DNA from: an uncultured Gammaproteobacteria bacterium
GTDB taxonomy: Bacteria; Patescibacteriota; Patescibacteriia; UBA2196
Direction of reading: 5' to 3'
Assembly (NCBI GenBank): GCA_964488715.1
Contig: CAZAVD010000002.1
Coordinates: 7,093 to 49,477 of the forward strand
Length of the DNA stretch: 42,385 bases
Position numbers and translations under genes: made by a program. Below are positions 224 through 38,792 of the stretch, piece by piece. Numbering within the stretch: the first letter of the stretch is position 1; each line of letters opens with the position of its first letter. A model generated the notes under the pieces. The model was not told where the DNA came from, did no database searches, and was given only the letters and a program-made list of their open reading frames with translations.

Positions 224-880
224 TTATTGTCCTAAAACTTCTTTATAAATCTCCATCAAAGTATTATCATCAATCTCTATCAACTGCTCTTCTGTCATTT
301 GTCCAGAAGAACGCAGTAAATCCCGAATTTGCTCTGGACTTAAATTTATTAATTCATTCATTAAGTCACTTGGAATTTCTTGGTTGGCTCCTTGCTCCTG
401 CATGGAGCCGTCTTGTTCCAATAAACTTTCATCATAAGGCAAAATATTTTCTGGATTTACATTATTTTCATCTGGCAAATCAGATCCTCTACAATCCTGC
501 CCACTTGGACACAATGGATCATGATTAGAATCAATTTCTTCTTTATCTAAATATCCATCTGAATCTGTATCTGCTAAATATGCAGAAGTTTTGTAAATAT
601 ATATTTCATCATAATCTGTTAAGCCATCTTTATCAGTATCTAAATTTTGCAATTCAAGCAAATCTGTTACTAAATCCTGTTGTTGTGTTTCTGCGACTTC
701 ATTTCCTGTTCCAGTAAATTTATTATTATAAATATTTTTAGTTAAGTTTATAAAACCATAAATTAAAGTGCCTGTTCCTAAAAAAATTAATATACCAAAA
801 ACCAACTTTGGGGATATAAAGCTTTGCTTATTATTACTATATATATTATTAGTCATTTCTTGATTATTATTATTGTCCAC
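224..880 (-). CDS. N-terminally TM-anchored protein with thrombospondin type-3-like calcium-binding repeats
   Basis: TM helix FGILIFLGTGTLIYGFINL; DTDKDGLTDYDE and DTDSDGYLDKEE match the DxDxDGxxDxxE repeat. Confidence 0.75.
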   Translation of the reverse strand: MDNNNNQEMTNNIYSNNKQSFISPKLVFGILIFLGTGTLIYGFINLTKNIYNNKFTGTGNEVAETQQQDLVTDLLELQNLDTDKDGLTDYDEIYIYKTSAYLADTDSDGYLDKEEIDSNHDPLCPSGQDCRGSDLPDENNVNPENILPYDESLLEQDGSMQEQGANQEIPSDLMNELINLSPEQIRDLLRSSGQMTEEQLIEIDDNTLMEIYKEVLGQ

Positions 881-1039: not shown

Positions 1040-1918
1040 ATAAATTAACTTTATCCAATCCTCTATTGATAATTCCTGTGCTCTAACTTTTCTATCTAAC
1101 CCTGCTTGAATTAAAATCTTTTCAGCTTCTAAAGCTGGAATTTTCAACCCTGCTGATAAATTATTTTTCAGCATTTTACGTTTAGCTGAAAAGCCTATCT
1201 TAACTATCTTAAAAAAAGTTTTATAATTTATATTATCATAATTATTTTTTATTTTTAATTTAATAACAGCACTATCAACATCAGGCTCTGGCCAAAAATT
1301 ACTTCTTGATACTTGCGCTACAATTTCACATTCTGCGTAAAATTGGCATAAAACAGATAAAATAGACATTTTGCCAGGCTTGTCCCGTCGCTCGCGAGCG
1401 ACGGGACTGGCAACTATTCTCTCTGCAACTTCTTTTTGAACCATTAAAACCATTAATTCTGGTTTATTTTTTTCTTCATGCAAAAACTTCCACAAAACTG
1501 GACTTGTAATCTGATATGGCAAGTTTGATATTATTTTGTAATCTTGAGTTTGGAATTTGAAATTTGGATTTTTTTTGGAAATTGTATCTTGGAAATTGAA
1601 AATTTTAAGTATATCATCATTGATTATTTCTATTTTTTTATTTTTATATTTTGTTAATTGAATTTTGAGTCTTGAATAAAGTTTCTTATCTTTTTCTACA
1701 ACAACTAAATTATCTGTATATTTTAATAATTCTTGAGTTAAAACTCCAAACCCTGGTCCAATTTCTAATATATTATCTTTCTCTGATAACTCCCCTGCTT
1801 TAACAATTTTATTTAATATATTTTTATTAATTAAAAAATTCTGACCTAGTTTTTTGCTAGGCCTAATATCTAATTTTTTACAAAGATTTTTGATTATATT
1901 GATATTAGTTAACTGCAT
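986..1918 (-). CDS. rsmA: 16S rRNA (adenine1518/1519-N6)-dimethyltransferase RsmA/KsgA
   Basis: GQNFL, SAM motif EIGPGFGVLT, NLPYQITSP. ORF-track N-terminus (1919-1960) overlaps the tRNA-like gene, so start placed at ATG 1918 (MQLTNINIIKNL). Confidence 0.9.
   Translation of the reverse strand: MQLTNINIIKNLCKKLDIRPSKKLGQNFLINKNILNKIVKAGELSEKDNILEIGPGFGVLTQELLKYTDNLVVVEKDKKLYSRLKIQLTKYKNKKIEIINDDILKIFNFQDTISKKNPNFKFQTQDYKIISNLPYQITSPVLWKFLHEEKNKPELMVLMVQKEVAERIVASPVARERRDKPGKMSILSVLCQFYAECEIVAQVSRSNFWPEPDVDSAVIKLKIKNNYDNINYKTFFKIVKIGFSAKRKMLKNNLSAGLKIPALEAEKILIQAGLDRKVRAQELSIEDWIKLIYKLKIQSSKFKKISNTKF
1382..1407. repeat. Perfect 26-bp GC-rich palindrome embedded in frame in rsmA
   Basis: GTCCCGTCGCTCGCGAGCGACGGGAC; translated as part of SPVARERRD. 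Confidence 0.9.
1549..1606. repeat. AT-rich heptad-unit element copy inside rsmA
   Basis: TTTGGAATTTGAAATTTGGATTTTTTTTGGAAATTGTATCTTGGAAATTGAAAATTTT; near-full match to reverse complement of intergenic 8772-8822. Confidence 0.8.
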
Positions 1919-1927
1919 AAAATAAAA

Positions 1928-2002
1928 TGGTGGACTTGACGGGAATCGAACCCGCGCCACTGCGTGTCAACGGCAATAATGCTACCATTACACCACAAGC
2001 CC
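1928..2002 (-). tRNA. tRNA-like gene, 75 nt with encoded CCA; isotype unresolved (anticodon arm non-canonical by hand folding)
   Basis: Acceptor GGGCTTG/CAAGTCC with G3:U70, A73, CCA; D arm TGGTGTAATGGTAGCA; T arm GCGGG-TTCGATT-CCCGT. Confidence 0.5.
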
Positions 2003-4730: not shown

Positions 4731-4765
4731 TTTTTAAGAAATTAAAATCTCTAGACTTGTAAAAA

Positions 4766-4804
4766 GTTTCGAACAGTCCGGCATACGCCGGCCAAGTTCG
4801 AAAC
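4766..4804 (-). terminator. leuS terminator hairpin
   Basis: GTTTCGAAC...CCGGC-ATAC-GCCGG...GTTCGAAAC; on minus strand followed by TTTTTAC, 5 nt after the leuS stop. Confidence 0.6.
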
Positions 4805-4809
4805 AGAAC

Positions 4810-7269
4810 CTAAACAACAATACTAATTAATTTATTTTTAATAAAAATAATTTTTTTAGGTGTTTTATTATCTAGCCATTTTTGAATTTTTTCAGAATCT
4901 AAAACTACTTTTTTAGCTTCATCTTCAGAAATATTTGCATTTACTAAAATTTTATCTCTAACTTTTCCATTCACTTGAACTACTAACTCTATTTCATCAG
5001 CTTGAATCAAGCTTTCATCATATTCTGGCCACTTTTCTTTGGCAAGTGCTTGATCATTGCCAAGCAAGTGCCATAATTCCTCTGAAATGTGTGGGGCAAA
5101 TGGAGATAATAATAAAATTAAATTTTTATAAATTTCTTTAGAAATATTTTCTTGTTTTTCTAGATTATTTACTAAAATCATCATTTGTGAAATTGCTGTG
5201 TTAAATTTCATTTCTTCAATATCTTCAGTAACTTTTTTAATCGTCTGGTGCATCAAGATATCAAGTTTTGATTTTTGACTTGCAATTTTAACTTTTAAAT
5301 TTTGACTTTTAACTTTTTTTTGTAAATTCCAAACTTTATCCAAAAATCTTTTTACCCCAATTATTCCCTTGTCGCTCCAGGATCCACCATCTTCAAACGG
5401 AGCTAAAAATAAAACATAAGTTCTAAAAACATCTGCTCCATATTTTTTAATATAATCATCCGGAGTGATTGAACTTCCTTTTGATTTTGACATTTTTGTT
5501 CCATCTTCAGCTAAAATCATTCCTTGATGAGTTAATTTTATAAATGGCTCATCAAAATTTATTAATTTTTGATCATGTAAAACTTTTGTGATAAATCTTG
5601 CATACAATAAATGCATAACAGCATGTTCTGCTCCCCCACAATATTGATCAACTGGTAACCACTTATCTACTAAATTTTTATCAAATGCTTTGTCATTTAA
5701 ATCTGGATTTATAAATCTTAAAAAATACCAAGATGAGCACACAAAAGTATCCATTGTTTCTGTACTGCGTTTGGCATCTATTCCACATTTAGGACATTTA
5801 GTATTAACAAAATTTTTAGATCTAGCAAGCGGCGATTCACCCTCATCAGTTGGTTTAAAATCTTCTAATTCAGGCAATTGTACTGGCAAATTTTCATCTA
5901 AAACTTCACCGCATTTTTCACAATAAATAATTGGAATTGGCGCGCCCCAATATCTTTGTCTAGAAATTAGCCAATCGCGCAGCTTATAATTAACAGCTTT
6001 TTTGCCTAATTTATTCTCTTCAAGCCAATCACTAATCTTATTAATTGCATCTTTGGGCTTTGAATTATCTAAAAAATCAGAATTAACCATTTTTCCTGAA
6101 TCTATTTCTGTAAAAGCCTCTTTATCAACATCACCACCTTTAATAACTTCAATAATTTCTAAGTTATATTTCTTAGCAAATTCCCAATCTCTTTCATCAT
6201 GAGCTGGTACAGCCATAATTGCGCCTGTTCCATAATTCATCATCACATAATCTGCAACAAAAATTGGAATTGGTTTGTTATTTACGGGATTAATTGCCTG
6301 AACACCTTTTAATTCAACTCCGGTTTTATTTTTATTTAAATCTCCTCTTTCTAAATCAGATTTTTTACTAGCTTTTTGGATATATTTTTTTACTTCTTGG
6401 AAATTGGAAATTGTATCTTGGAACTTGCTGATAAGCTGATGTTCTGGCGCAATAACCATAAAAGTTGCGCCAAACAAAGTATCAGGTCGTGTAGTAAATA
6501 CTTCAAGTTTAAGGGATCCCTCCGCTCCACTCACTCGTTCCTCACTCGTTCCTGTCGGGATGACAGAAAAAAAGACATTTGCTCCCACAGACTTGCCAAT
6601 CCAATTCTTCTGCATTGTAATTGTTTTTTTAGGCCAATTAATTTTATTATGATCTTGTAATAACTTATCAGCATAATCTGTAATTTTAAAAAACCATTGT
6701 TTTAAATTTTTCTGAACTACTTCTGAATCACATCTTTCACATTTTCCAGAAACAACCTGTTCATTTGCCAATACAGTTTTACAAGAAGGGCACCAATTAA
6801 CTGGGGCTTCTGCTTGATAAGCTAAACCAGCTTTGTATAAAACAGAAAAAATCCATTGTGTCCATTTATAATATTCTGGAGAAGATGTATCAATTTCCTT
6901 TTCCCAATCATACATTAAACCTAATTCCCTAAGTTGCTGTTTTGAATATTCAATATTTTTACTTGTACTTTCAGCTGGATGAACACCTGTCTTAATTGCA
7001 TAATTTTCTGCTGGCAAACCAAACGCATCTGCTCCCATTGGCTGAAAAACATTAAAACCTTGCATTTTTTTGTATCTGCCAAACACATCTGAACCAGTAA
7101 AATTATACCCATGCCCAATATGAATTTTATCGCCAGAAGGATAATAAAACATAACTAAATTATAAAATTTAGTTTTTAATTCATTGTCTAAATCGCAAAA
7201 ATTAGTCTTATTGTCTTCCCAATACTTTTGCCATTTTTTTTCAATTATTTTGTGATTATATTCTTGCAT
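4810..7269 (-). CDS. leuS: Leucine--tRNA ligase
   Basis: YPSGDKIHIGHGYNF (HIGH), VFTTRPDTLFG, KMSKSKGS (KMSKS), 819 aa. Confidence 0.95.
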   Translation of the reverse strand: MQEYNHKIIEKKWQKYWEDNKTNFCDLDNELKTKFYNLVMFYYPSGDKIHIGHGYNFTGSDVFGRYKKMQGFNVFQPMGADAFGLPAENYAIKTGVHPAESTSKNIEYSKQQLRELGLMYDWEKEIDTSSPEYYKWTQWIFSVLYKAGLAYQAEAPVNWCPSCKTVLANEQVVSGKCERCDSEVVQKNLKQWFFKITDYADKLLQDHNKINWPKKTITMQKNWIGKSVGANVFFSVIPTGTSEERVSGAEGSLKLEVFTTRPDTLFGATFMVIAPEHQLISKFQDTISNFQEVKKYIQKASKKSDLERGDLNKNKTGVELKGVQAINPVNNKPIPIFVADYVMMNYGTGAIMAVPAHDERDWEFAKKYNLEIIEVIKGGDVDKEAFTEIDSGKMVNSDFLDNSKPKDAINKISDWLEENKLGKKAVNYKLRDWLISRQRYWGAPIPIIYCEKCGEVLDENLPVQLPELEDFKPTDEGESPLARSKNFVNTKCPKCGIDAKRSTETMDTFVCSSWYFLRFINPDLNDKAFDKNLVDKWLPVDQYCGGAEHAVMHLLYARFITKVLHDQKLINFDEPFIKLTHQGMILAEDGTKMSKSKGSSITPDDYIKKYGADVFRTYVLFLAPFEDGGSWSDKGIIGVKRFLDKVWNLQKKVKSQNLKVKIASQKSKLDILMHQTIKKVTEDIEEMKFNTAISQMMILVNNLEKQENISKEIYKNLILLLSPFAPHISEELWHLLGNDQALAKEKWPEYDESLIQADEIELVVQVNGKVRDKILVNANISEDEAKKVVLDSEKIQKWLDNKTPKKIIFIKNKLISIVV
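6396..6427. repeat. AT-rich heptad-unit element copy inside leuS
   Basis: CTTGGAAATTGGAAATTGTATCTTGGAACTTG; 18-nt core GGAAATTGTATCTTGGAA at 6406-6423, translated FQDTIS. Confidence 0.85.
6514..6564 (-). repeat. Long-form GTCATCC...GGGATCC element in frame in leuS
   Basis: Minus strand GTCATCCCGACAGGAACGAGTGAGGAACGAGTGAGTGGAGCGGAGGGATCC (51 nt, 17 codons); tandem 11-mer GGAACGAGTGA x2; encodes VIPTGTSEERVSGAEGS. Confidence 0.85.
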
Positions 7270-8715: not shown

Positions 8716-8762
8716 GGTAGTCATCCTGAGCGACCTTTAGGATCGTTAGGAGCCCAAGGATC
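8716..8762 (+). repeat. Long-form GTCATCC...AAGGATC element
   Basis: GGTAGTCATCCTGAGCGACCTTTAGGATCGTTAGGAGCCCAAGGATC; near-identical to 24527-24572; begins 2 nt after the M23 stop. Confidence 0.9.
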
Positions 8763-8771
8763 TTATTGTAA

Positions 8772-8822
8772 AATTTCCAATTTCCAAGATACGATTTCCA
8801 AATAAATTTCAAATTCCAAAAT
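8772..8822 (-). repeat. AT-rich heptad-unit element, intergenic copy
   Basis: Reverse complement ATTTTGGAATTTGAAATTTATTTGGAAATCGTATCTTGGAAATTGGAAATT aligns with rsmA 1549-1606. Confidence 0.85.
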
Positions 8823-8826
8823 AAAA

Positions 8827-8861
8827 AATCCGCAGTGAAAATCTACTGCGGATTTTGTTTT
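8827..8861 (+). terminator. Rho-independent terminator, possibly bidirectional
   Basis: AATCCGCAGT-GAAAATCT-ACTGCGGATT then TTTGTTTT; A-run upstream. Confidence 0.75.
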
Positions 8862-9112: not shown

Positions 9113-9150
9113 TGTCGCCAGATAGGAACGATCGTTCCTATCTGGCGACA
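9113..9150. repeat. Perfect 38-bp palindrome, downstream flank of Cas2-like gene
   Basis: TGTCGCCAGATAGGAACGATCGTTCCTATCTGGCGACA. Confidence 0.95.
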
Positions 9151-9174: not shown

Positions 9175-9729
9175 TTATATAACTTTCTTAGCAATAATAA
9201 ACTTTACAAATTGACTTAAATCACATTTATGAACTAAATGTCTGATTAATTTAAAAGATTGTTCTCTATTGGTTTGAAAAACACTATTTTGAAGATAATC
9301 AAAACCTAAACCATAAAGCGATTTTCTAAAAAGGTTTCTTGCTCTTTTTAATCTTTCTGGTACATCAAAAATAACTATATAAATTTCATTACTTTTTTTC
9401 TTTTTAGAACGCTTCATTTCCAGAGGATAAGAAATTAATTTTAACCAACCTTTTTTAGTTAACATTAATCTTTTTTTCTTGTCTTCTATTATAAGATCAC
9501 TTTTTTTTAATTTAGTAATCATTTGACTAATTCTTCTTTTTTCTTTTATTTCTTCTCTTTTTTCTTCATTTTTCACTTGTCTACTTTTATAAAGGTCAAA
9601 CAAATTAGGTCTATAAATATATTCTCTAAAATCAATCAATCCGCCAACTGCTCCGCCTATTATTTGTAAAACTTCTTTGGTTAACGAAGGTTTAAAAAGC
9701 TCTTTTTTATTATTATTTTTTGTTTTCAT
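9175..9729 (-). CDS. wHTH + Cas2-like (PaaX-family-like) protein, paralogue A
   Basis: IYIVIFDVPERLKRARNLFRKSLYGLGFDYLQNSVF resembles the Cas2 / PaaX middle-domain signature; LIIEDKKKRLMLTKKGW is wHTH-like; paralogue at 24714-25232. Confidence 0.6.
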   Translation of the reverse strand: MKTKNNNKKELFKPSLTKEVLQIIGGAVGGLIDFREYIYRPNLFDLYKSRQVKNEEKREEIKEKRRISQMITKLKKSDLIIEDKKKRLMLTKKGWLKLISYPLEMKRSKKKKSNEIYIVIFDVPERLKRARNLFRKSLYGLGFDYLQNSVFQTNREQSFKLIRHLVHKCDLSQFVKFIIAKKVI

Positions 9730-9741
9730 AAACTTTTTTAG

Positions 9742-9779
9742 TGTAGCGTAATAGGAACGATCGTTCCTATTACGCTACA
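9742..9779. repeat. Perfect 38-bp palindrome, upstream flank of Cas2-like gene
   Basis: TGTAGCGTAATAGGAACGATCGTTCCTATTACGCTACA; shares the 20-bp core with 9113-9150. Confidence 0.95.
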
Positions 9780-17493: not shown

Positions 17494-18165
17494 ATGAATA
17501 TAAACTGGTTTGGACAATCATTTTTCAAAATCACAACAAAAAACTCATCTGGAGAAGATGTTGTTATTGCTATTGACCCATTTGATAAATCTTATGGTTT
17601 AAAAGTGCCAACAAAATTTGGCGCAGATATTGTTTTAATTTCTCATGATCATAAAGATCATAGTAATATAAATGCAGTTAAAGGCACTAATTTATCACCA
17701 GAACCTTTTGTTATTTCCGGTCCAGGAGAATATGAAATTAAAGGAGTAATGATTTATGGAATTCCAGCTTTTCATGATGACAAACAAGGCGAAGATCGTG
17801 GAGAAATAACAATGTTTTTAATTGAAACAGAAGGAGTTTGGTTAGCGCATTTAAGCGATTTAGGACAAAAATCTTTAGAAAATGGTCAGTTAGAACAATT
17901 ACAATCAGTTGATGTTTTAATGATTCCAGTTGGCGGAACATTTACTATTGATGCCAAAGAAGCTTCAAAAATAATTTCGCAAGTTGAACCAAGAGTTATT
18001 ATCCCAATGCACTATAATCTGCCTGGACTTAAATTAGATCTTGATAGTGTAGATAAATTTATTAAAGAAGAAGGAATAAATCCAGAAGAAGTTGAAGGTA
18101 AATTAAAAATTACTAAAAAAGACTTGCCAAATGAAGATACTAAACTTTTTATTTTAAAAAGTTAA
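17494..18165 (+). CDS. MBL-fold metal-dependent hydrolase, UPF0173-like
   Basis: WFGQSFFKI, IAIDPFD, LISHDHKDH (HxHxDH). Confidence 0.8.
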   Translation: MNINWFGQSFFKITTKNSSGEDVVIAIDPFDKSYGLKVPTKFGADIVLISHDHKDHSNINAVKGTNLSPEPFVISGPGEYEIKGVMIYGIPAFHDDKQGEDRGEITMFLIETEGVWLAHLSDLGQKSLENGQLEQLQSVDVLMIPVGGTFTIDAKEASKIISQVEPRVIIPMHYNLPGLKLDLDSVDKFIKEEGINPEEVEGKLKITKKDLPNEDTKLFILKS

Positions 18166-18170
18166 TTCCT

Positions 18171-18277
18171 AAATTACAAATTACAATTTCTAATAAATTT
18201 CTAAATTAATAATTTTTTAAATTGGGCATTAGACATTCTTAATTTCATTGGAAATTAGAAATTATAATTTAGAAATT
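18171..18277. repeat. AT-rich heptad-unit inverted-repeat (MITE-like) element, copy 2
   Basis: Left arm AAATTACAAATTACAATTTCTAAT (23/24 to 105-128); right arm ATTAGAAATTATAATTTAGAAATT; inner TTAGACATT and ATTGGAAATTAGAAATT shared with copy 1. Confidence 0.65.
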
Positions 18278-24526: not shown

Positions 24527-24572
24527 GGTAGTCATCCTGAGCGACCTTTAGGATTTTAGGAGCCGAAGGATC
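24527..24572 (+). repeat. Long-form GTCATCC...AAGGATC element
   Basis: GGTAGTCATCCTGAGCGACCTTTAGGATTTTAGGAGCCGAAGGATC; lies 8 nt upstream of the exonuclease ATG on the opposite strand. Confidence 0.9.
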
Positions 24573-24633: not shown

Positions 24634-24661
24634 GTTCAAATAAATTATTTCTATTTCAAAC

Positions 24662-24696
24662 ATAGACTCTTAACTCACGGCCGTGAGTTAATGACA
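24662..24696. repeat. 35-nt repeat with perfect 20-bp palindromic core, downstream flank of Cas2-like paralogue B
   Basis: ATAGACTCTTAACTCACGGCCGTGAGTTAATGACA; core TAACTCACGGCCGTGAGTTA. Confidence 0.9.
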
Positions 24697-24713
24697 AGTA
24701 ATTTATTAGTAAT

Positions 24714-25232
24714 TTATATTAGGCCAAACCTTTCCTTTAGTTTATCCTCACTACTGATTTTATCAGCCTCAATATACTGAAACCAATCACCTTCTCTAAA
24801 TCCTGGTATAATATCATACAAATAATTTAATACATCATAAGGGAATACCCAAACACTTTTTTGTAATTGATAGAATCCTATATCTATTAAGCTTTTTCTT
24901 AAATTATCTCTAAATTTTCTTTTTGTTTCTGGTATATCAAATATTAGGATGCGCCATTTTTTGTCCCATTTAGCTTTATCAATTTTATTTTTAATAATTA
25001 TTTTTGAAACTTCTTGCTTGCCTTTTTTAGTTAAATCACATCTTTTTTTACTTTTATTGTATTTAATATATTTACCTCTTTCCAAGTTACGATAAGCATA
25101 ATAAGGTATACCGCCAATTGATTGTTTAATATAACCATAAGGATTAATTAAATAAAAAATCAACCCTTCATTTTCATCAATAAAATTTTTTAAAAATTCT
25201 ATTGTTTTTTGACCTAATTTTCTTGTTTTCAT
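24714..25232 (-). CDS. wHTH + Cas2-like (PaaX-family-like) protein, paralogue B
   Basis: WDKKWRILIFDIPETKRKFRDNLRKSLIDIGFYQLQKSVWVFP matches the PaaX-type signature; LERGKYIKYNKSKKRCDLTKKGK is wHTH-like. Confidence 0.65.
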   Translation of the reverse strand: MKTRKLGQKTIEFLKNFIDENEGLIFYLINPYGYIKQSIGGIPYYAYRNLERGKYIKYNKSKKRCDLTKKGKQEVSKIIIKNKIDKAKWDKKWRILIFDIPETKRKFRDNLRKSLIDIGFYQLQKSVWVFPYDVLNYLYDIIPGFREGDWFQYIEADKISSEDKLKERFGLI

Positions 25233-25234
25233 AT

Positions 25235-25269
25235 ATAGACTTTTATCTCACGATCGTGAGTTAATGATA
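25235..25269. repeat. 35-nt repeat with palindromic core, upstream flank of paralogue B
   Basis: ATAGACTTTTATCTCACGATCGTGAGTTAATGATA; 30/35 identical to 24662-24696 in direct orientation; overlapped by a TTGCTT-17-TATCAT promoter on the minus strand. Confidence 0.9.
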
Positions 25270-25314
25270 GCAAATTAAATTTAAAAAAGCAAAAAAATAT
25301 GATAATAAAAAAAT

Positions 25315-26560: not shown

Positions 26561-26612
26561 AAAAAGGACAGGTCTAAGACCTGTCCCTACAGAACGAGGC
26601 AATGCCTCGTTC
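26561..26612 (-). terminator. Tandem hairpins downstream of rpoC; the distal one has a T-run
   Basis: Minus strand GAACGAGGCA-T-TGCCTCGTTC, then GGACAGGTC-TTA-GACCTGTCC followed by TTTTTAATC. Confidence 0.65.
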
Positions 26613-26647: not shown

Positions 26648-26702
26648 GGGATCCCATCGCCTTGACCCAATCCTAAAAAATCCTATCAAGACTCGGGATG
26701 AC
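26648..26702 (-). repeat. Long-form GTCATCC...GGGATCC element 5 nt after the rpoC stop
   Basis: Minus strand GTCATCCCGAGTCTTGATAGGATTTTTTAGGATTGGGTCAAGGCGATGGGATCC. Confidence 0.8.
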
Positions 26703-33885: not shown

Positions 33886-34103
33886 AGTTTATGCGCGTAA
33901 AAAAAACCATCCCTCCGTTCAACTTATCCACAGGAAGGTTCTTGACTTTTACGTTTTTAGCTATCTAGTTGTAGCTGCCTTCATAAATTGCTAATTTTAG
34001 CGGAAAATTCCGCTTGCCTGAGGCAGAAAAATATATAATAATTTAAACTTTTTACACAATTATATTTAAAATAACATGGTTTGAATTTTGTGTCAAATTT
34101 TTC

Positions 34104-34136
34104 TGTTGGCTCCTGGCTGTGCCTGGAGCCATTTTG
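34104..34136 (+). repeat. GGCTCCAGG-family hairpin, inverted relative to the other copies, with T-run on the plus strand
   Basis: TGTTGGCTCCTGG-CTGTG-CCTGGAGCC then ATTTTGTT; reverse complement aligns with 38743-38769. Confidence 0.7.
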
Positions 34137-34171
34137 TTATTCCATTAAAAATTTATTTTAGAAGAATTATT

Positions 34172-34791: not shown

Positions 34792-34857
34792 GTAACTATA
34801 TATTAAAATTTTCTTTATCATCTCTATAATCTCTACTTATTATACAATTTGCTTCCA

Positions 34858-34887
34858 CCTGTCATCCCTGCGAAGGCAGGGATCCAG
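34858..34887 (+). repeat. Short-form hairpin repeat CCTGTCATCC-stem-loop-GGATCCAG
   Basis: CCTGTCATCCCTGCGAAGGCAGGGATCCAG. Confidence 0.9.
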
Positions 34888-34976
34888 TTAATGGATTTAA
34901 ATACCCCAATAATACATCAACTTTCCAAAGATTATCACAGAAACCAGGTTTAATTAATTTTAATAAAGTATAAATA

Positions 34977-35006
34977 CTGGATTCCCGCTTTCGCGGGAAT
35001 GACAGG
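34977..35006 (-). repeat. Short-form hairpin repeat
   Basis: Minus strand CCTGTCATTCCCGCGAAAGCGGGAATCCAG. Confidence 0.9.
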
Positions 35007-35011
35007 AAGAG

Positions 35012-35041
35012 CTGGACTCCTGCCTACGCAGGAGTGACAGG
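35012..35041 (-). repeat. Short-form hairpin repeat, 4 nt after the GIY-YIG stop
   Basis: Minus strand CCTGTCACTCCTGCGTAGGCAGGAGTCCAG. Confidence 0.9.
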
Positions 35042-35045
35042 AAAA

Positions 35046-35345
35046 TCAAAACAATTCATCATACAAATCATCCCAATCAGGATTTTCTTCTTCAATTAAT
35101 TTAATCTTCCATTGTCTTTTCCATTTTTTCATTTGTTTTTCTCTTGTTATTGCATCATTTACATAATAATATGTTTCATAATAAACTAATTTATCTACAT
35201 TATATTCTTTAGTAAATCCTTCAATTTCTTTACTTTTATGTTCTTCCACTCTACATGTCAAATCTGAAGTCATTCCAATGTATAAAGTGCCATTTCTTTT
35301 ACTAGCTAGGATATAGACAAAATAGTATTTATCAAATTTTGCCAT
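35046..35345 (-). CDS. Small stand-alone GIY-YIG nuclease, YhbQ/UPF0213-like
   Basis: YFVYILASKRNGTLYIGMTSDLTCRVEEHK, FTKEYNVDKLVYYE, REKQMKKWKRQWKIKLIEEENPDWDDL. Confidence 0.85.
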   Translation of the reverse strand: MAKFDKYYFVYILASKRNGTLYIGMTSDLTCRVEEHKSKEIEGFTKEYNVDKLVYYETYYYVNDAITREKQMKKWKRQWKIKLIEEENPDWDDLYDELF

Positions 35346-35380
35346 ATATGTGGTGGTTTTAATTATTATTTATTTTAAAT

Positions 35381-35408
35381 GGATCCCTGCCTACGCAGGG
35401 ATGACAGG
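35381..35408 (-). repeat. Short-form hairpin repeat, 35 nt upstream of the GIY-YIG ATG
   Basis: Minus strand CCTGTCATCCCTGCGTAGGCAGGGATCC. Confidence 0.9.
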
Positions 35409-35485
35409 TGGTATAAATTTATTATTTTATAAAGTATTAAATGAATATTATCGCTGAAGTCAGAGACTGGAGCCAACATACACGT

Positions 35486-38649
<3,164 letters not shown>

Positions 38650-38730: not shown

Positions 38731-38765
38731 ATAAAACAAAAAGGCTCCAGGTGCAACCTGGAGCC
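38731..38765 (-). terminator. Rho-independent terminator (GGCTCCAGG-family hairpin)
   Basis: GGCTCCAGG-TGCAA-CCTGGAGCC perfect 9-bp stem; on minus strand followed by TTTTTGTTTT. Confidence 0.8.
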
Positions 38766-38792
38766 AACACAAAATAAGGGGTGACAAGAACT

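What the first reader, a model, noticed from the sequence alone, without database searches (positions are those of the whole stretch)
6514..6564. GTCATCC...GGGATCC repeat element translated in frame inside leuS; sister copies hug gene borders
Seen: a 51-nt (17-codon) GC-rich element with the family termini and an internal tandem 11-mer (GGAACGAGTGA x2) lies inside leuS. It encodes VIPTGTSEERVSGAEGS. The segment between the conserved GA.V.F and VFTTRPDT blocks is 22 aa here. From memory it is about 10 aa in E. coli and B. subtilis LeuRS, which is consistent with a net insertion. Other long-form copies lie 2 nt after the M23 stop (8716), 8 nt before the exonuclease ATG (24527, near-identical to 8716) and 5 nt after the rpoC stop (26648). 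Established: Rickettsia palindromic elements insert in frame into protein-coding genes. To my knowledge this has not been described for this kind of genome.
Basis: partly seen in the sequence, partly recalled or inferred. Interest (0 to 1): 0.65.

Follow-up and report, generated by a model that had tools for sequence, protein, structure and literature searches.

The report
Known hairpin repeat translated inside LeuRS
A 51-base, worn-down copy of a known bacterial hairpin repeat (the CGTC-REP / Ssn-related motif family, which includes some Rickettsia palindromic elements) sits in frame in a surface loop of the essential leucyl-tRNA synthetase of a marine Patescibacteria genome, and related repeats occupy the same loop in dozens of other lineages.

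Summary
Window 6514-6564 (minus strand) is a GC-rich 51-nt block in frame in leuS (4810-7269). It encodes VIPTGTSEERVSGAEGS and contains a tandem 11-mer.

The repeat family is real. Eight copies of the grammar occur in 42 kb, against 0.026 expected per shuffle.

The family is already described. It is the CGTC-tagged REP family (Di Nocera 2013), which includes Neisseria dRS3/NTS and Rickettsia RPE-4/-6. Chenal et al. 2025 generalised it as the Ssn-related motif (SRM).

The partner gene is in the same window. The 99-aa GIY-YIG ORF at 35046-35345 is 60% identical to the Neisseria SsnA orthologue. Canonical hairpins with 8-bp stems and 4-nt loops flank it.

The leuS copy is a degenerate, loop-expanded member that no longer folds. 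It lies at the tip of the beta-hairpin that opens the CP1 editing domain; pLDDT falls to 62 there. This loop is 8-10 aa in most relatives.

The new finding is recurrence. In 15 of the 120 closest LeuRS sequences, and in about 30 further metagenome loci, SRM singles or dimers sit within a few nucleotides of the same position. They occur in two reading frames. Some are fully canonical hairpins.

Verdict: a new member of a known kind, in a host group apparently not described for it, at a notable landing site. Translation is inferred, not shown.

The parts
6514..6565 (-). Degenerate long-loop SRM / CGTC-REP copy, in frame in leuS. It has the tag T-GTC, the head ATCCC, a 36-nt interior and the tail GGGAT-CC. 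It encodes residues 236-252, VIPTGTSEERVSGAEGS.
   Evidence: It does not fold better than shuffles as ssDNA (z +0.49). T at -1 is shared by 30 of 32 elements at this LeuRS site.
6531..6552 (-). Tandem duplication GGAACGAGTGA x2 inside the element's expanded loop.
   Evidence: Read directly from the sequence. The related long-loop element in L144 shares GAGGAACGAG.GAG.
4810..7269 (-). leuS, leucyl-tRNA synthetase, 819 aa, the host gene.
   Evidence: The AlphaFold2 model has mean pLDDT 89.1 and pTM 0.83.
8720..8762 (+). Long-loop SRM copy 6 nt after the stop of the LysM/M23 peptidase gene: GTCATCCTGAGCGA...AAGGATC.
   Evidence: (D20). Its head and tail match the canonical unit GTCATCCTGAGCGCCAGCGAAGGATCT seen in L006.
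24531..24572 (+). Long-loop SRM copy, near-identical to the 8720 copy.
26648..26702 (-). Long-loop SRM copy 5 nt after the rpoC stop. It has the same head (TGTCATCCCGA) and tail (GGGATCC) as the leuS copy, with an unrelated interior.
34861..34885 (+). Canonical SRM hairpin GTCATCCCTGCGAAGGCAGGGATCC with an 8-bp stem and a 4-nt loop. It lies inside the left arm (34846-34891) of a 46-nt inverted repeat.
   Evidence: I4; z -4.5.
34977..35004 (-). Canonical SRM TGTCATTCCCGCGAAAGCGGGAATCCAG. It matches the published SRM search pattern and equals the Neisseria NTS consensus except for its first base.
   Evidence: 0.01 expected per shuffle; z -5.9. Consensus from PMC11893778.
35014..35038 (-). Canonical SRM hairpin GTCACTCCTGCGTAGGCAGGAGTCC. 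GTCAC starts 7 nt after the ssnA stop (ORF end 35046).
   Evidence: (z -5.6).
35046..35345 (-). ssnA homologue: a single-domain 99-aa GIY-YIG nuclease.
   Evidence: Pfam PF01541, E 1e-14. It is 60% identical (E 1e-38) to the 94-aa N. gonorrhoeae ORF, which is itself embedded in NTS copies. It sits at the same place in 18 contigs from many samples.
35381..35405 (-). Canonical SRM hairpin GTCATCCCTGCGTAGGCAGGGATCC, 35 nt upstream of the ssnA ATG. It lies inside the right arm (35375-35420) of the 46-nt inverted repeat.
   Evidence: I4; z -4.8.

Best explanation
The 51-nt block is a decayed, loop-expanded copy of the CGTC-tagged REP / Ssn-related motif (SRM) hairpin family.

Shown:
- The genome carries the family. 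The window holds 4 canonical 8-bp/4-nt hairpins and 4 long-loop forms.
- It carries the family's cognate single-domain GIY-YIG gene (ssnA). Its Neisseria and Wolbachia homologues are site-specific ssDNA endonucleases that cut just upstream of the hairpin.
- The leuS copy keeps the tag, head and tail (T-GTC-ATCCC ... GGGAT-CC). It has a 36-nt interior with an 11-nt tandem duplication and has lost hairpin potential.
- It lies in frame at the tip of the beta-hairpin that opens the CP1 editing domain, directly before the Thr-rich TTRPDT editing motif.
- The same few nucleotides of leuS hold SRM singles or head-out dimers in many other lineages.

Inferred:
- An SRM, probably a dimer as in the relatives P0003, P0007 and P0008, entered this loop in an ancestor by the still unknown SRM dissemination process.
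- Only insertions in structurally permissive loops of this essential gene survive.
- Indels and substitutions then accumulated under selection for an open frame and for a hydrophobic V-I that continues the first strand.
- The segment is translated as a 17-aa flexible surface loop that is neutral or nearly so.
- The copy is no longer an SsnA substrate.
For: Family statistics: 8 copies against 0.026 per shuffle. One copy matches the published SRM pattern, against 0.01 expected.

Folding: the canonical hairpins have z -4.5 to -5.9, while the long forms have z about 0.

ssnA: Pfam GIY-YIG; 60% identity to the Neisseria orthologue, which is surrounded by NTS copies.

Literature: PMC11893778 and PMC3733652.

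Insertion state in relatives: the loop is 8-10 aa in most, and SRM-type in 15 of 120. DNA at the site in 7 loci includes fully canonical dimers in L088 and L090. About 34 more SRM-bearing LeuRS loops came from the metagenome scan, with the frame-1 chance hits as an internal control.

Structure: residues 236-252 lie between strands E226-238 and E253-259, where pLDDT is 62 against 91-92 on either side. PDB alignments show a net insertion of about 12 aa.

Permissiveness:
- Unrelated in-frame palindromes occupy the same loop in L080 and L025.
- SRMs occupy two other LeuRS sites in other lineages, one of which falls in or next to the window model's lowest-confidence loop, 657-665.

Stability: the insert is identical in a 99.55%-identical genome, and every own-species contig carries it.
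Against: No transcript or peptide evidence shows that the 17 residues are in the mature protein.

The leuS copy fails the published SRM pattern and the stem/loop criteria of the family. Its membership rests on tag, head and tail identity, on sister copies, and on orthologous-site comparison.

No target-site duplication, empty-site allele in the same species, or other direct sign of an insertion event was found.

How SRMs move is unknown, so the insertion step is an assumption.

The metagenome scan was designed to find elements in this loop. It cannot give a rate relative to other sites.
Confidence: 0.8

Rival explanations
1. Site-directed integration. The SRM machinery, or the DNA structure at this point of leuS, targets the element to this exact position. 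On this reading the recurrence reflects target specificity rather than tolerance of the protein loop.
For: The insertion point is confined to 1-2 codons after the conserved Phe in more than 40 lineages whose loci span 31-58% GC. SRM-type peptides occur nowhere else in the 120 closest LeuRS sequences, although other loops vary in length. Both frame-0 (about 29) and frame-2 (5) insertions hit the same few nucleotides. The uninserted P0006 loop AAT GTC AAT GAT reads like joined dimer termini GTCA+ATGAY. That would be either a precise-excision footprint or a palindromic target.
Against: Unrelated palindromic repeats also occupy this loop (and P0028, P0035 and P0068). SRMs occur at two other LeuRS sites in other lineages. 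The T-rich context upstream is forced by the conserved Phe codon. The V-I start mimics the ancestral K-I-K strand, so selection can explain the frame bias. SsnA is only known to cut ssDNA next to an existing hairpin, not to integrate DNA.
Confidence: 0.25
2. One ancient insertion with turnover. A single SRM entered the loop in a deep ancestor and was inherited vertically. Gene conversion from other genomic SRM copies then replaced its sequence repeatedly, and it was lost in many lineages.
For: The first units in the window, L005, L002, L143 and L144 share interior motifs (GGAG[CT]GGAG, GAGGAACGAG) and the same boundaries. Head and tail co-vary: ATCCC/GGGAT, ATTCC/GGAAT and ATTCT/AGAAT. P0006 looks like a deletion footprint.
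Against: At least 8 state changes are needed on the NJ tree. P0004, next to the window clade, keeps an ancestral-type 10-aa hairpin, KIKSSNEVLN. Frame-2 insertions cannot derive from frame-0 ones without frameshifts. Canonical NTS-type, VIASEAKQS-type and VILSE-type stems at the site are different subfamilies.
Confidence: 0.3
3. Exapted function. The insert is kept because it does something. It could be a DNA or RNA structure that modulates leuS expression or recombination, or a peptide loop that tunes the movement of the editing domain.
For: It sits at the hinge hairpin just before the TTRPDT editing motif. Several relatives keep perfect 8-bp stems inside the coding sequence. The insert is fixed in all sampled populations.
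Against: The window copy has lost the hairpin. Inserted peptides are unrelated in sequence and range from 4 to 37 aa in total loop length. Most relatives do without any insert. pLDDT is low.
Confidence: 0.08
4. Chance resemblance. The loop is an ordinary lineage-specific expansion, and the GTCATCC/GGGATCC ends are coincidental.
For: The copy fails the published SRM pattern. It does not fold.
Against: GTCATCCC...GGGATCC within 60 nt occurs 4 times against 0.000 per shuffle. The block is 60% or more GC in a gene of about 31% GC. Canonical SRMs sit at the orthologous position in relatives.
Confidence: 0.03

Closest known systems
CGTC-tagged REPs (CGTC-1 to CGTC-4; Di Nocera, De Gregorio & Rocco 2013, PMC3733652)
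   Same: They share the (C/T)GTC tag, a stem that begins with AT, a C-rich tail, a position within about 20 nt of gene ends, dimers in inverted orientation, and in-frame intragenic copies encoding peptides such as VIPAKAGI and SFPRKRES. The four short window copies fit the CGTC-1 description exactly (8-bp stem, 4-nt loop).
   Different: The leuS copy and three sister copies have 17-40-nt interiors in place of a 4-5-nt loop, and they do not fold. The host is a marine Patescibacteria genome; that paper reports the family in 5 phyla. That paper states that CGTC REPs lack a dedicated enzyme.
NTS / Ssn-related motifs with the SsnA GIY-YIG ssDNA endonuclease (Chenal et al. 2025, PMC11893778)
   Same: The window copy at 34977-35004 equals the NTS consensus apart from its first base. 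The architecture is hairpin-ssnA-hairpin. SsnA here is 99 aa, single-domain and 60% identical to the Neisseria protein.
   Different: NTS copies are reported as rarely intragenic (2% in N. meningitidis). No in-frame hot spot is described, and CPR is not mentioned in the main text. The activity of this SsnA is untested.
Rickettsia palindromic elements (RPE; Ogata et al. 2000, cited from memory and via PMC3733652)
   Same: They are GC-richer palindromic repeats inserted in frame into essential genes of a small, AT-rich, host-dependent genome, and they are tolerated in surface-exposed positions. RPE-4 and RPE-6 are CGTC REPs according to PMC3733652.
   Different: The classic RPE-1 is about 100-150 bp and unrelated in sequence. 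The element here is 51 nt and degenerate. Rickettsial cases are scattered over many genes rather than recurring at one orthologous site across lineages.
REP/REPIN elements with RAYT transposases (GTAG REPs)
   Same: Both are short hairpin repeats, often as inverted doublets, that cluster around a small nuclease gene. Both are thought to be disseminated by an ssDNA-hairpin-specific enzyme.
   Different: The tag is GTAG rather than CGTC/TGTC. The enzyme is a Y1 HUH transposase rather than a GIY-YIG nuclease. No RAYT gene is in the window.
Mobile GC clusters of yeast and fungal mitochondrial genomes (from memory)
   Same: They are GC-rich palindromic elements in an AT-rich genome. Some are in frame in a protein gene (var1).
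   Different: They are organellar, unrelated in sequence and have no Ssn partner. This is an analogy only.

Membership tests
CGTC-tagged REP / SRM | 5' tag CGTC (variants TGTC, CCTC) followed by A-T | tested here: met
   The leuS copy reads T-GTC-AT. T is at -1 in 30 of 32 LeuRS-site elements. Six of the 8 window copies have TGTC and two have AGTC.
CGTC-tagged REP / SRM | 8-9-bp stem and 4-5-nt loop forming a stable hairpin | tested here: not met
   The leuS copy has only ATCCC/GGGAT (5 bp) around a 36-nt interior, and its ssDNA fold gives z +0.49. The feature is met by the four copies at 34861-35405 (z -4.5 to -5.9). It is also met by orthologous-site elements in L088, L090, L118, L124 and L151.
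CGTC-tagged REP / SRM | Match to the published search pattern HGTCWYN(0-2)YYVSBRHN(0-5)WNVSBRGN(0-2)RNCYNB | tested here: not met
   Only 34977-35004 matches. The leuS copy and the other copies do not. The pattern is narrow: even the perfect hairpin GTCATCCCTGCGAAGGCAGGGATCC fails it.
CGTC-tagged REP / SRM | Multi-copy in the genome, mostly close to gene ends | tested here: met
   There are 8 copies in 42 kb against 0.026 expected. The three intergenic long-form copies lie within about 10 nt of a gene border. Two more copies lie in the 5 kb beyond the window in L001.
CGTC-tagged REP / SRM | Genome encodes an ssnA (cd10448-type single-domain GIY-YIG) flanked by the motif | tested here: met
   The 99-aa GIY-YIG ORF at 35046-35345 has hairpins 35 nt upstream and 7 nt downstream. 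It is 60% identical to the Neisseria orthologue. CDD cd10448 itself could not be searched.
CGTC-tagged REP / SRM | SsnA binds the hairpin as ssDNA and cuts upstream of it | not testable with these tools
   This is biochemistry. It is known only for Neisseria and Wolbachia homologues (PMC11893778).
Rickettsia palindromic elements (in-frame selfish repeats) | Repeat inserted in frame in a conserved protein at a position absent from orthologues | tested here: met
Rickettsia palindromic elements (in-frame selfish repeats) | Insert lies on the protein surface, away from the core | tested here: met
   The insert is a hairpin tip between strands 226-238 and 253-259, where pLDDT is 62. Solvent exposure was not computed.
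Rickettsia palindromic elements (in-frame selfish repeats) | Insert is present in the expressed protein | not testable with these tools
   No RNA run held the locus at useful depth. No proteomics is available.
REP / RAYT (REPIN) | GTAG tag and an associated Y1 (HUH) transposase gene | tested here: not met
   The tag is TGTC. The associated gene is GIY-YIG.
MITE | Terminal inverted repeats with a target-site duplication | tested here: not met
   No direct repeat flanks the leuS copy or the dimers in relatives.
Intein or self-splicing intron | Splicing motifs or an RNA family match | tested here: not met
   The insert is 17 aa with no intein blocks. Rfam at gathering threshold finds only tRNA-Ser in the window.

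The most novel reading that the evidence does not exclude
The hairpin at the entrance of the LeuRS editing domain may be a cross-lineage, near-nucleotide-precise landing site for Ssn-associated hairpin repeats. It would carry occupied sites, empty sites and possibly excision footprints (P0006: GTCA+ATGAT). If the recurrence reflects targeting rather than mere tolerance, this one orthologous site would be a natural series of independent insertion and excision events. From it one could read off the unknown mobility mechanism of SRM/CGTC-REPs and the in vivo role of SsnA.
Probability: 0.25. Interest if true: 0.6.

Novelty: new member of a known kind. Interest (0 to 1): 0.42.

Why it matters
The finding links three literatures to one concrete locus in a candidate-phyla-radiation genome: Rickettsia in-frame palindromic elements, CGTC-tagged REPs, and the recently characterised Ssn ssDNA nucleases.

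It shows that Ssn/SRM systems exist in marine Patescibacteria, with a hairpin essentially identical to the Neisseria NTS.

It also shows that their repeats repeatedly end up translated in one loop of an essential aminoacyl-tRNA synthetase.

For annotation, loop peptides such as VIPxE..GS, VILSE..., ...AQDD and ...SGMT in CPR proteins are repeat-derived, not lineage-specific functional motifs.

For mechanism, the many independent occupied and empty versions of one site could help show how these repeats spread. That process is currently unknown.

Tried and rejected
- Rfam at gathering threshold over the whole window found only tRNA-Ser.
- The published SRM pattern catches one copy only and misses the leuS copy. 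I used a head/tail-complement grammar with shuffles instead.
- ssDNA folding of the leuS and other long copies is no better than shuffles. So 'palindromic element' is not literally true of this copy.
- I looked for presence/absence polymorphism. L001 is the same species (99.55% over 17.2 kb) with identical repeats. Contigs from four marine runs show no insert-less allele. Contigs cannot prove absence.
I used it only as a background set.
- NCBIfam has no specific model for the GIY-YIG protein. PDB gives only a weak hit to UPF0213 protein BH0048, 1ZG2.
- I considered that 10-aa loops such as SIFNFQFSI or KIQNSKFKIN were also repeat-derived. I rejected this: they have normal length and fit a conserved x-I-x-N-S-x-F-x-I hairpin pattern.
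- I considered that all inserts share the V-I frame. Five frame-2 cases reject this.
- I considered that the loop is the only SRM site in LeuRS. rejects this.
- ssnA mobility: the gene is at the same place in 18 contigs, with no sign of movement.
Full report
**1. What is in the sequence**

The window is about 29% GC. leuS is the 819-codon ORF 4810-7269 on the minus strand.

On that strand, 6564->6514 reads GTCATCCCGACA-GGAACGAGTGA-GGAACGAGTGA-GTGGAGCGGAGGGATCC. This is one of the few islands in the window with 60% or more GC. It is in frame and encodes VIPTGTSEERVSGAEGS, residues 236-252.

**2. The repeat family is real and richer than reported**

Besides the four long copies (6514, 8720, 24531, 26648), the window holds four 25-nt copies at 34861(+), 35003(-), 35038(-) and 35405(-). 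These have the form (T)GTC-AT/CYCC.GC-GNAR-GC.GGRRT-CC.

As ssDNA the short copies fold into hairpins with 8-bp stems and 4-nt loops, with z-scores of -4.5 to -5.9. The four long copies, including the leuS one, fold no better than shuffles.

A simple grammar describes the family: GTC, a 5-mer A[CT][CT]C[CT], then its complement plus C within 65 nt. It occurs 8 times against 0.026 per dinucleotide shuffle, and 0 of 500 shuffles reach that count.

**3. The partner gene**

The short hairpins surround a 99-codon ORF at 35046-35345(-) with a GIY-YIG domain (Pfam E 1e-14). One hairpin starts 35 nt upstream of its ATG. Two lie in tandem just after the stop, and one more lies in the opposite orientation.

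The outermost pair belongs to a 46-nt, 87% inverted repeat at 34846-34891 / 35375-35420 (I4).

A tblastn search found 60% identity (E 1e-38 in direct comparison) to a 94-aa ORF of Neisseria gonorrhoeae. That ORF is itself embedded in CGTCATTCCCGCGCAGGCGGGAATC repeats.

**4. The family is known**

- **Chenal et al. 2025** (PMC11893778) define the Neisseria NTS as CGTCATTCCCGCGMAVGCGGGAATCYRG. They generalise it to 'Ssn-related motifs' (SRM).
  - These motifs flank ssnA, a single-domain GIY-YIG gene of about 94 aa.
  - SsnA is a site-specific ssDNA endonuclease that cuts upstream of the hairpin.
  - The authors note the IS-like NTS-ssnA-NTS layout and the parallel with REP/RAYT.
- **Window match.** The copy at 34977-35004 is TGTCATTCCCGCGAAAGCGGGAATCCAG. 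It is the only match to their search pattern.
- **Di Nocera et al. 2013** (PMC3733652) had described the same repeats as 'CGTC-tagged REPs'.
  - The tag is often TGTC, the stems are 8-9 bp starting with AT, the loops are 4-5 nt, and the tail is CCA.
  - They equate these repeats with Neisseria dRS3 and with RPE-4/RPE-6 of Rickettsia conorii.
  - They list in-frame intragenic copies, such as VIPAKAGI and SFPRKRES, including copies in some tRNA synthetase genes.

**5. The leuS copy within the family**

It keeps the tag, head and tail, and shares TGTCATCCCGA...GGGATCC with the copy after rpoC. Its interior is 36 nt, carries an 11-nt tandem duplication, and has no stem beyond 5 bp.

It therefore fails the stem/loop criteria and the published pattern. 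I treat it as a degenerate long-loop derivative.

Three related long-loop units occur at the same LeuRS position elsewhere:
- L005: GTCATTCCGACCGAAATGAGCGAAGCGAATGGAGTGGAGGAATCT.
- L143: ...GTGGAGGAATCC-CTT.
- L144...GCGAGGAACGAGAGAGCGAAGTCGAAGGATCC.

**6. Position in the protein**

PDB alignments place the insert between AEILF and IPVFTTRPDT of T. thermophilus LeuRS (1H3N), and between VEITF and LTVYTTRPDT of E. coli LeuRS. Both of those proteins have 10 residues there.

An AlphaFold2 model built with 62 homologues has mean pLDDT 89.1 and pTM 0.83. It puts residues 236-252 at the tip of the hairpin formed by strands 226-238 and 253-259. The 241-250 block has pLDDT 62, against 91-92 on both sides.

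The element's first residues, V-I, continue the first strand, where uninserted relatives have K-I-K.

**7. Relatives**

The closest LeuRS proteins are from Patescibacteria, with names such as Kuenenbacteria, Parcubacteria and Paceibacterota. The runs holding the locus are marine or seawater metagenomes.

Among the 120 best homologues the loop is 4-37 aa, modally 8-10. Fifteen of them carry SRM-type peptides there and nowhere else in the protein. Examples:
- NVILNGAERSEESNRSFAKAQDDKQLK
- FVIPTEMSEANGVEESLKQATDERSRDFARDDNKLS
- SVIASEAKQSNEQDNKLE
- SVVIPAEAGIQSSGSRIKSGMTLK

DNA from seven loci confirms this:
- L002, L005 and L006 hold head-out dimers (GTCAT...ATGAC).
- L088 and L090 hold dimers of perfect 8-bp hairpins.
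- L089 holds a single unit.

On an NJ tree built without the loop, the SRM state needs at least 8 changes.

A pattern scan of metagenome contigs used GTCATYC, then 44-74 nt, then the VFTTRPDT codons. It gave 58 loci:
- 16 are chance frame-1 hits from K-S-F/H-S-G codons. These serve as a useful control.
- About 29 are frame-0 SRM inserts.
- 5 are frame-2 SRM inserts.
- The loci range from 33% to 58% GC.

The base before GTCAT is T in 30 of 32 cases. The insertion point is always 1-2 codons after the conserved Phe.

In 79 LeuRS from other phyla the loop is 9-11 aa in 67, and none carries an SRM. Two carry other in-frame palindromes at this very place: L080, a 36-nt perfect palindrome, and L025.

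**8. Why the same place**

Three observations favour tolerance of the loop as the main filter:
- Unrelated palindromic repeats also land here.
- In other lineages SRMs occupy two further LeuRS sites. One of them falls in or next to the window model's least confident loop, 657-665.
- The V-I start mimics the ancestral strand.

Targeting is not excluded. The precision of the site across frames and lineages is striking.

The uninserted P0006 loop (AAT GTC AAT GAT = GTCA+ATGAT) is exactly what removal of the interior of an L002-like dimer would leave. L002 reads AAT GTCA[T...]ATGAC AAA, which would give N-V-N-D. That is one case and an inference only.

**9. Stability**

A second assembly of the same species is 99.55% identical over 17.2 kb and has identical repeats. 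Contigs from four runs show no insert-less allele. ssnA sits between ligA and the HD-domain gene in 18 contigs.

Nothing indicates current mobility in this population.

**10. Verdict**

The element belongs to a known family that has a known partner enzyme, and in-frame copies of that family are known from other phyla.

Three things are new:
- the host group;
- the long-loop decayed form;
- the recurrent use of the LeuRS CP1 entry hairpin.

Translation and the mode of insertion remain inferred.

Noticed in passing
window 9113-9150 and 9742-9779; window 24643-24703 and 25216-25276: Each of the two PaaX_M (Cas2-like domain) genes, 9175-9729(-) and 24714-25232(-), is bracketed by its own pair of GC-rich palindromes. 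The first pair are 38-nt perfect palindromes, TGTCGCCAGATAGGAACGATCGTTCCTATCTGGCGACA and TGTAGCGTAATAGGAACGATCGTTCCTATTACGCTACA. The second pair are CTCTTAACTCACGGCCGTGAGTTAATGAC-type. They could be operators or cassette borders.
   Followed up: no
window 1576-1595, 6404-6423, 35902-35921 (also 8769-8830, 97-223, 18163-18277): A 20-nt exact AT-rich repeat, TTGGAAATTGTATCTTGGAA, lies inside three different minus-strand genes: the rRNA dimethylase-like ORF, leuS and ligA. In leuS it encodes FQDTISN, and translating the ligA copy by hand gives the same peptide and frame. Related copies are intergenic. In leuS it is not a length insertion, because relatives have ISNF...ISNF there. The identity across three genes is unexplained.
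   Followed up: partly
window 379-419, 2507-2571, 34096-34160, 38735-38774: A second GC-rich palindromic family, TTGGCTCC(T)GGC...GCC(A)GGAGCCAA, lies in intergenic spacers (D12 and I8).
   Followed up: no
window 1365-1423, 2305-2365, 4764-4807, 26580-26609: Further unrelated GC-rich palindromes sit at gene ends. One example is GGCCTGCCCGCC...GGCGGGC followed by a T run at 2305-2365. They are probably intrinsic terminators.
   Followed up: no
L080 (Planctomycetia MAG) and L025 (Paceibacterota MAG), LeuRS loop: Unrelated in-frame palindromes occupy the same LeuRS hairpin. L080 has GGCGAAACCTCGGCCAGGCCTGGCCGAGGTTTCGCC. L025 has GTAACAAAGTTAGCCGATCGGCACAGTTTGTTAC.
   Followed up: partly
L101, L103, L123, L129 (+723 to +768 nt after the TTRPDT codons); L109, L145 (+1198 to +1303 nt): Canonical 8-bp SRM hairpins, singles and dimers, occupy two further in-frame sites of LeuRS in other metagenome lineages.
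   Followed up: partly
L002/L003 3941-5405 and 1503-2968; L006 365-1351: In relatives, a reverse transcriptase (RVT_1) with a bAvd accessory gene lies next to the LysM/M23 peptidase gene upstream of leuS. This looks like a diversity-generating retroelement. It is absent from the window.
   Followed up: no
L007 1-2308: The gyrA/topoisomerase IV gene of the relative carrying P0004 contains an intein with a LAGLIDADG domain.
   Followed up: no
window 1928-2002: tRNA-Ser(TGA) lies on the minus strand. The mechanical ORF 986-1960 overlaps its 3' part, so the true start of that gene is probably further downstream.
   Followed up: no
L001 20775-20797 and 20895-20917: Two more canonical SRM hairpins lie in the same species, just beyond the window's left end, between a 660-aa ORF and a cohesin-domain gene.
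   Followed up: no
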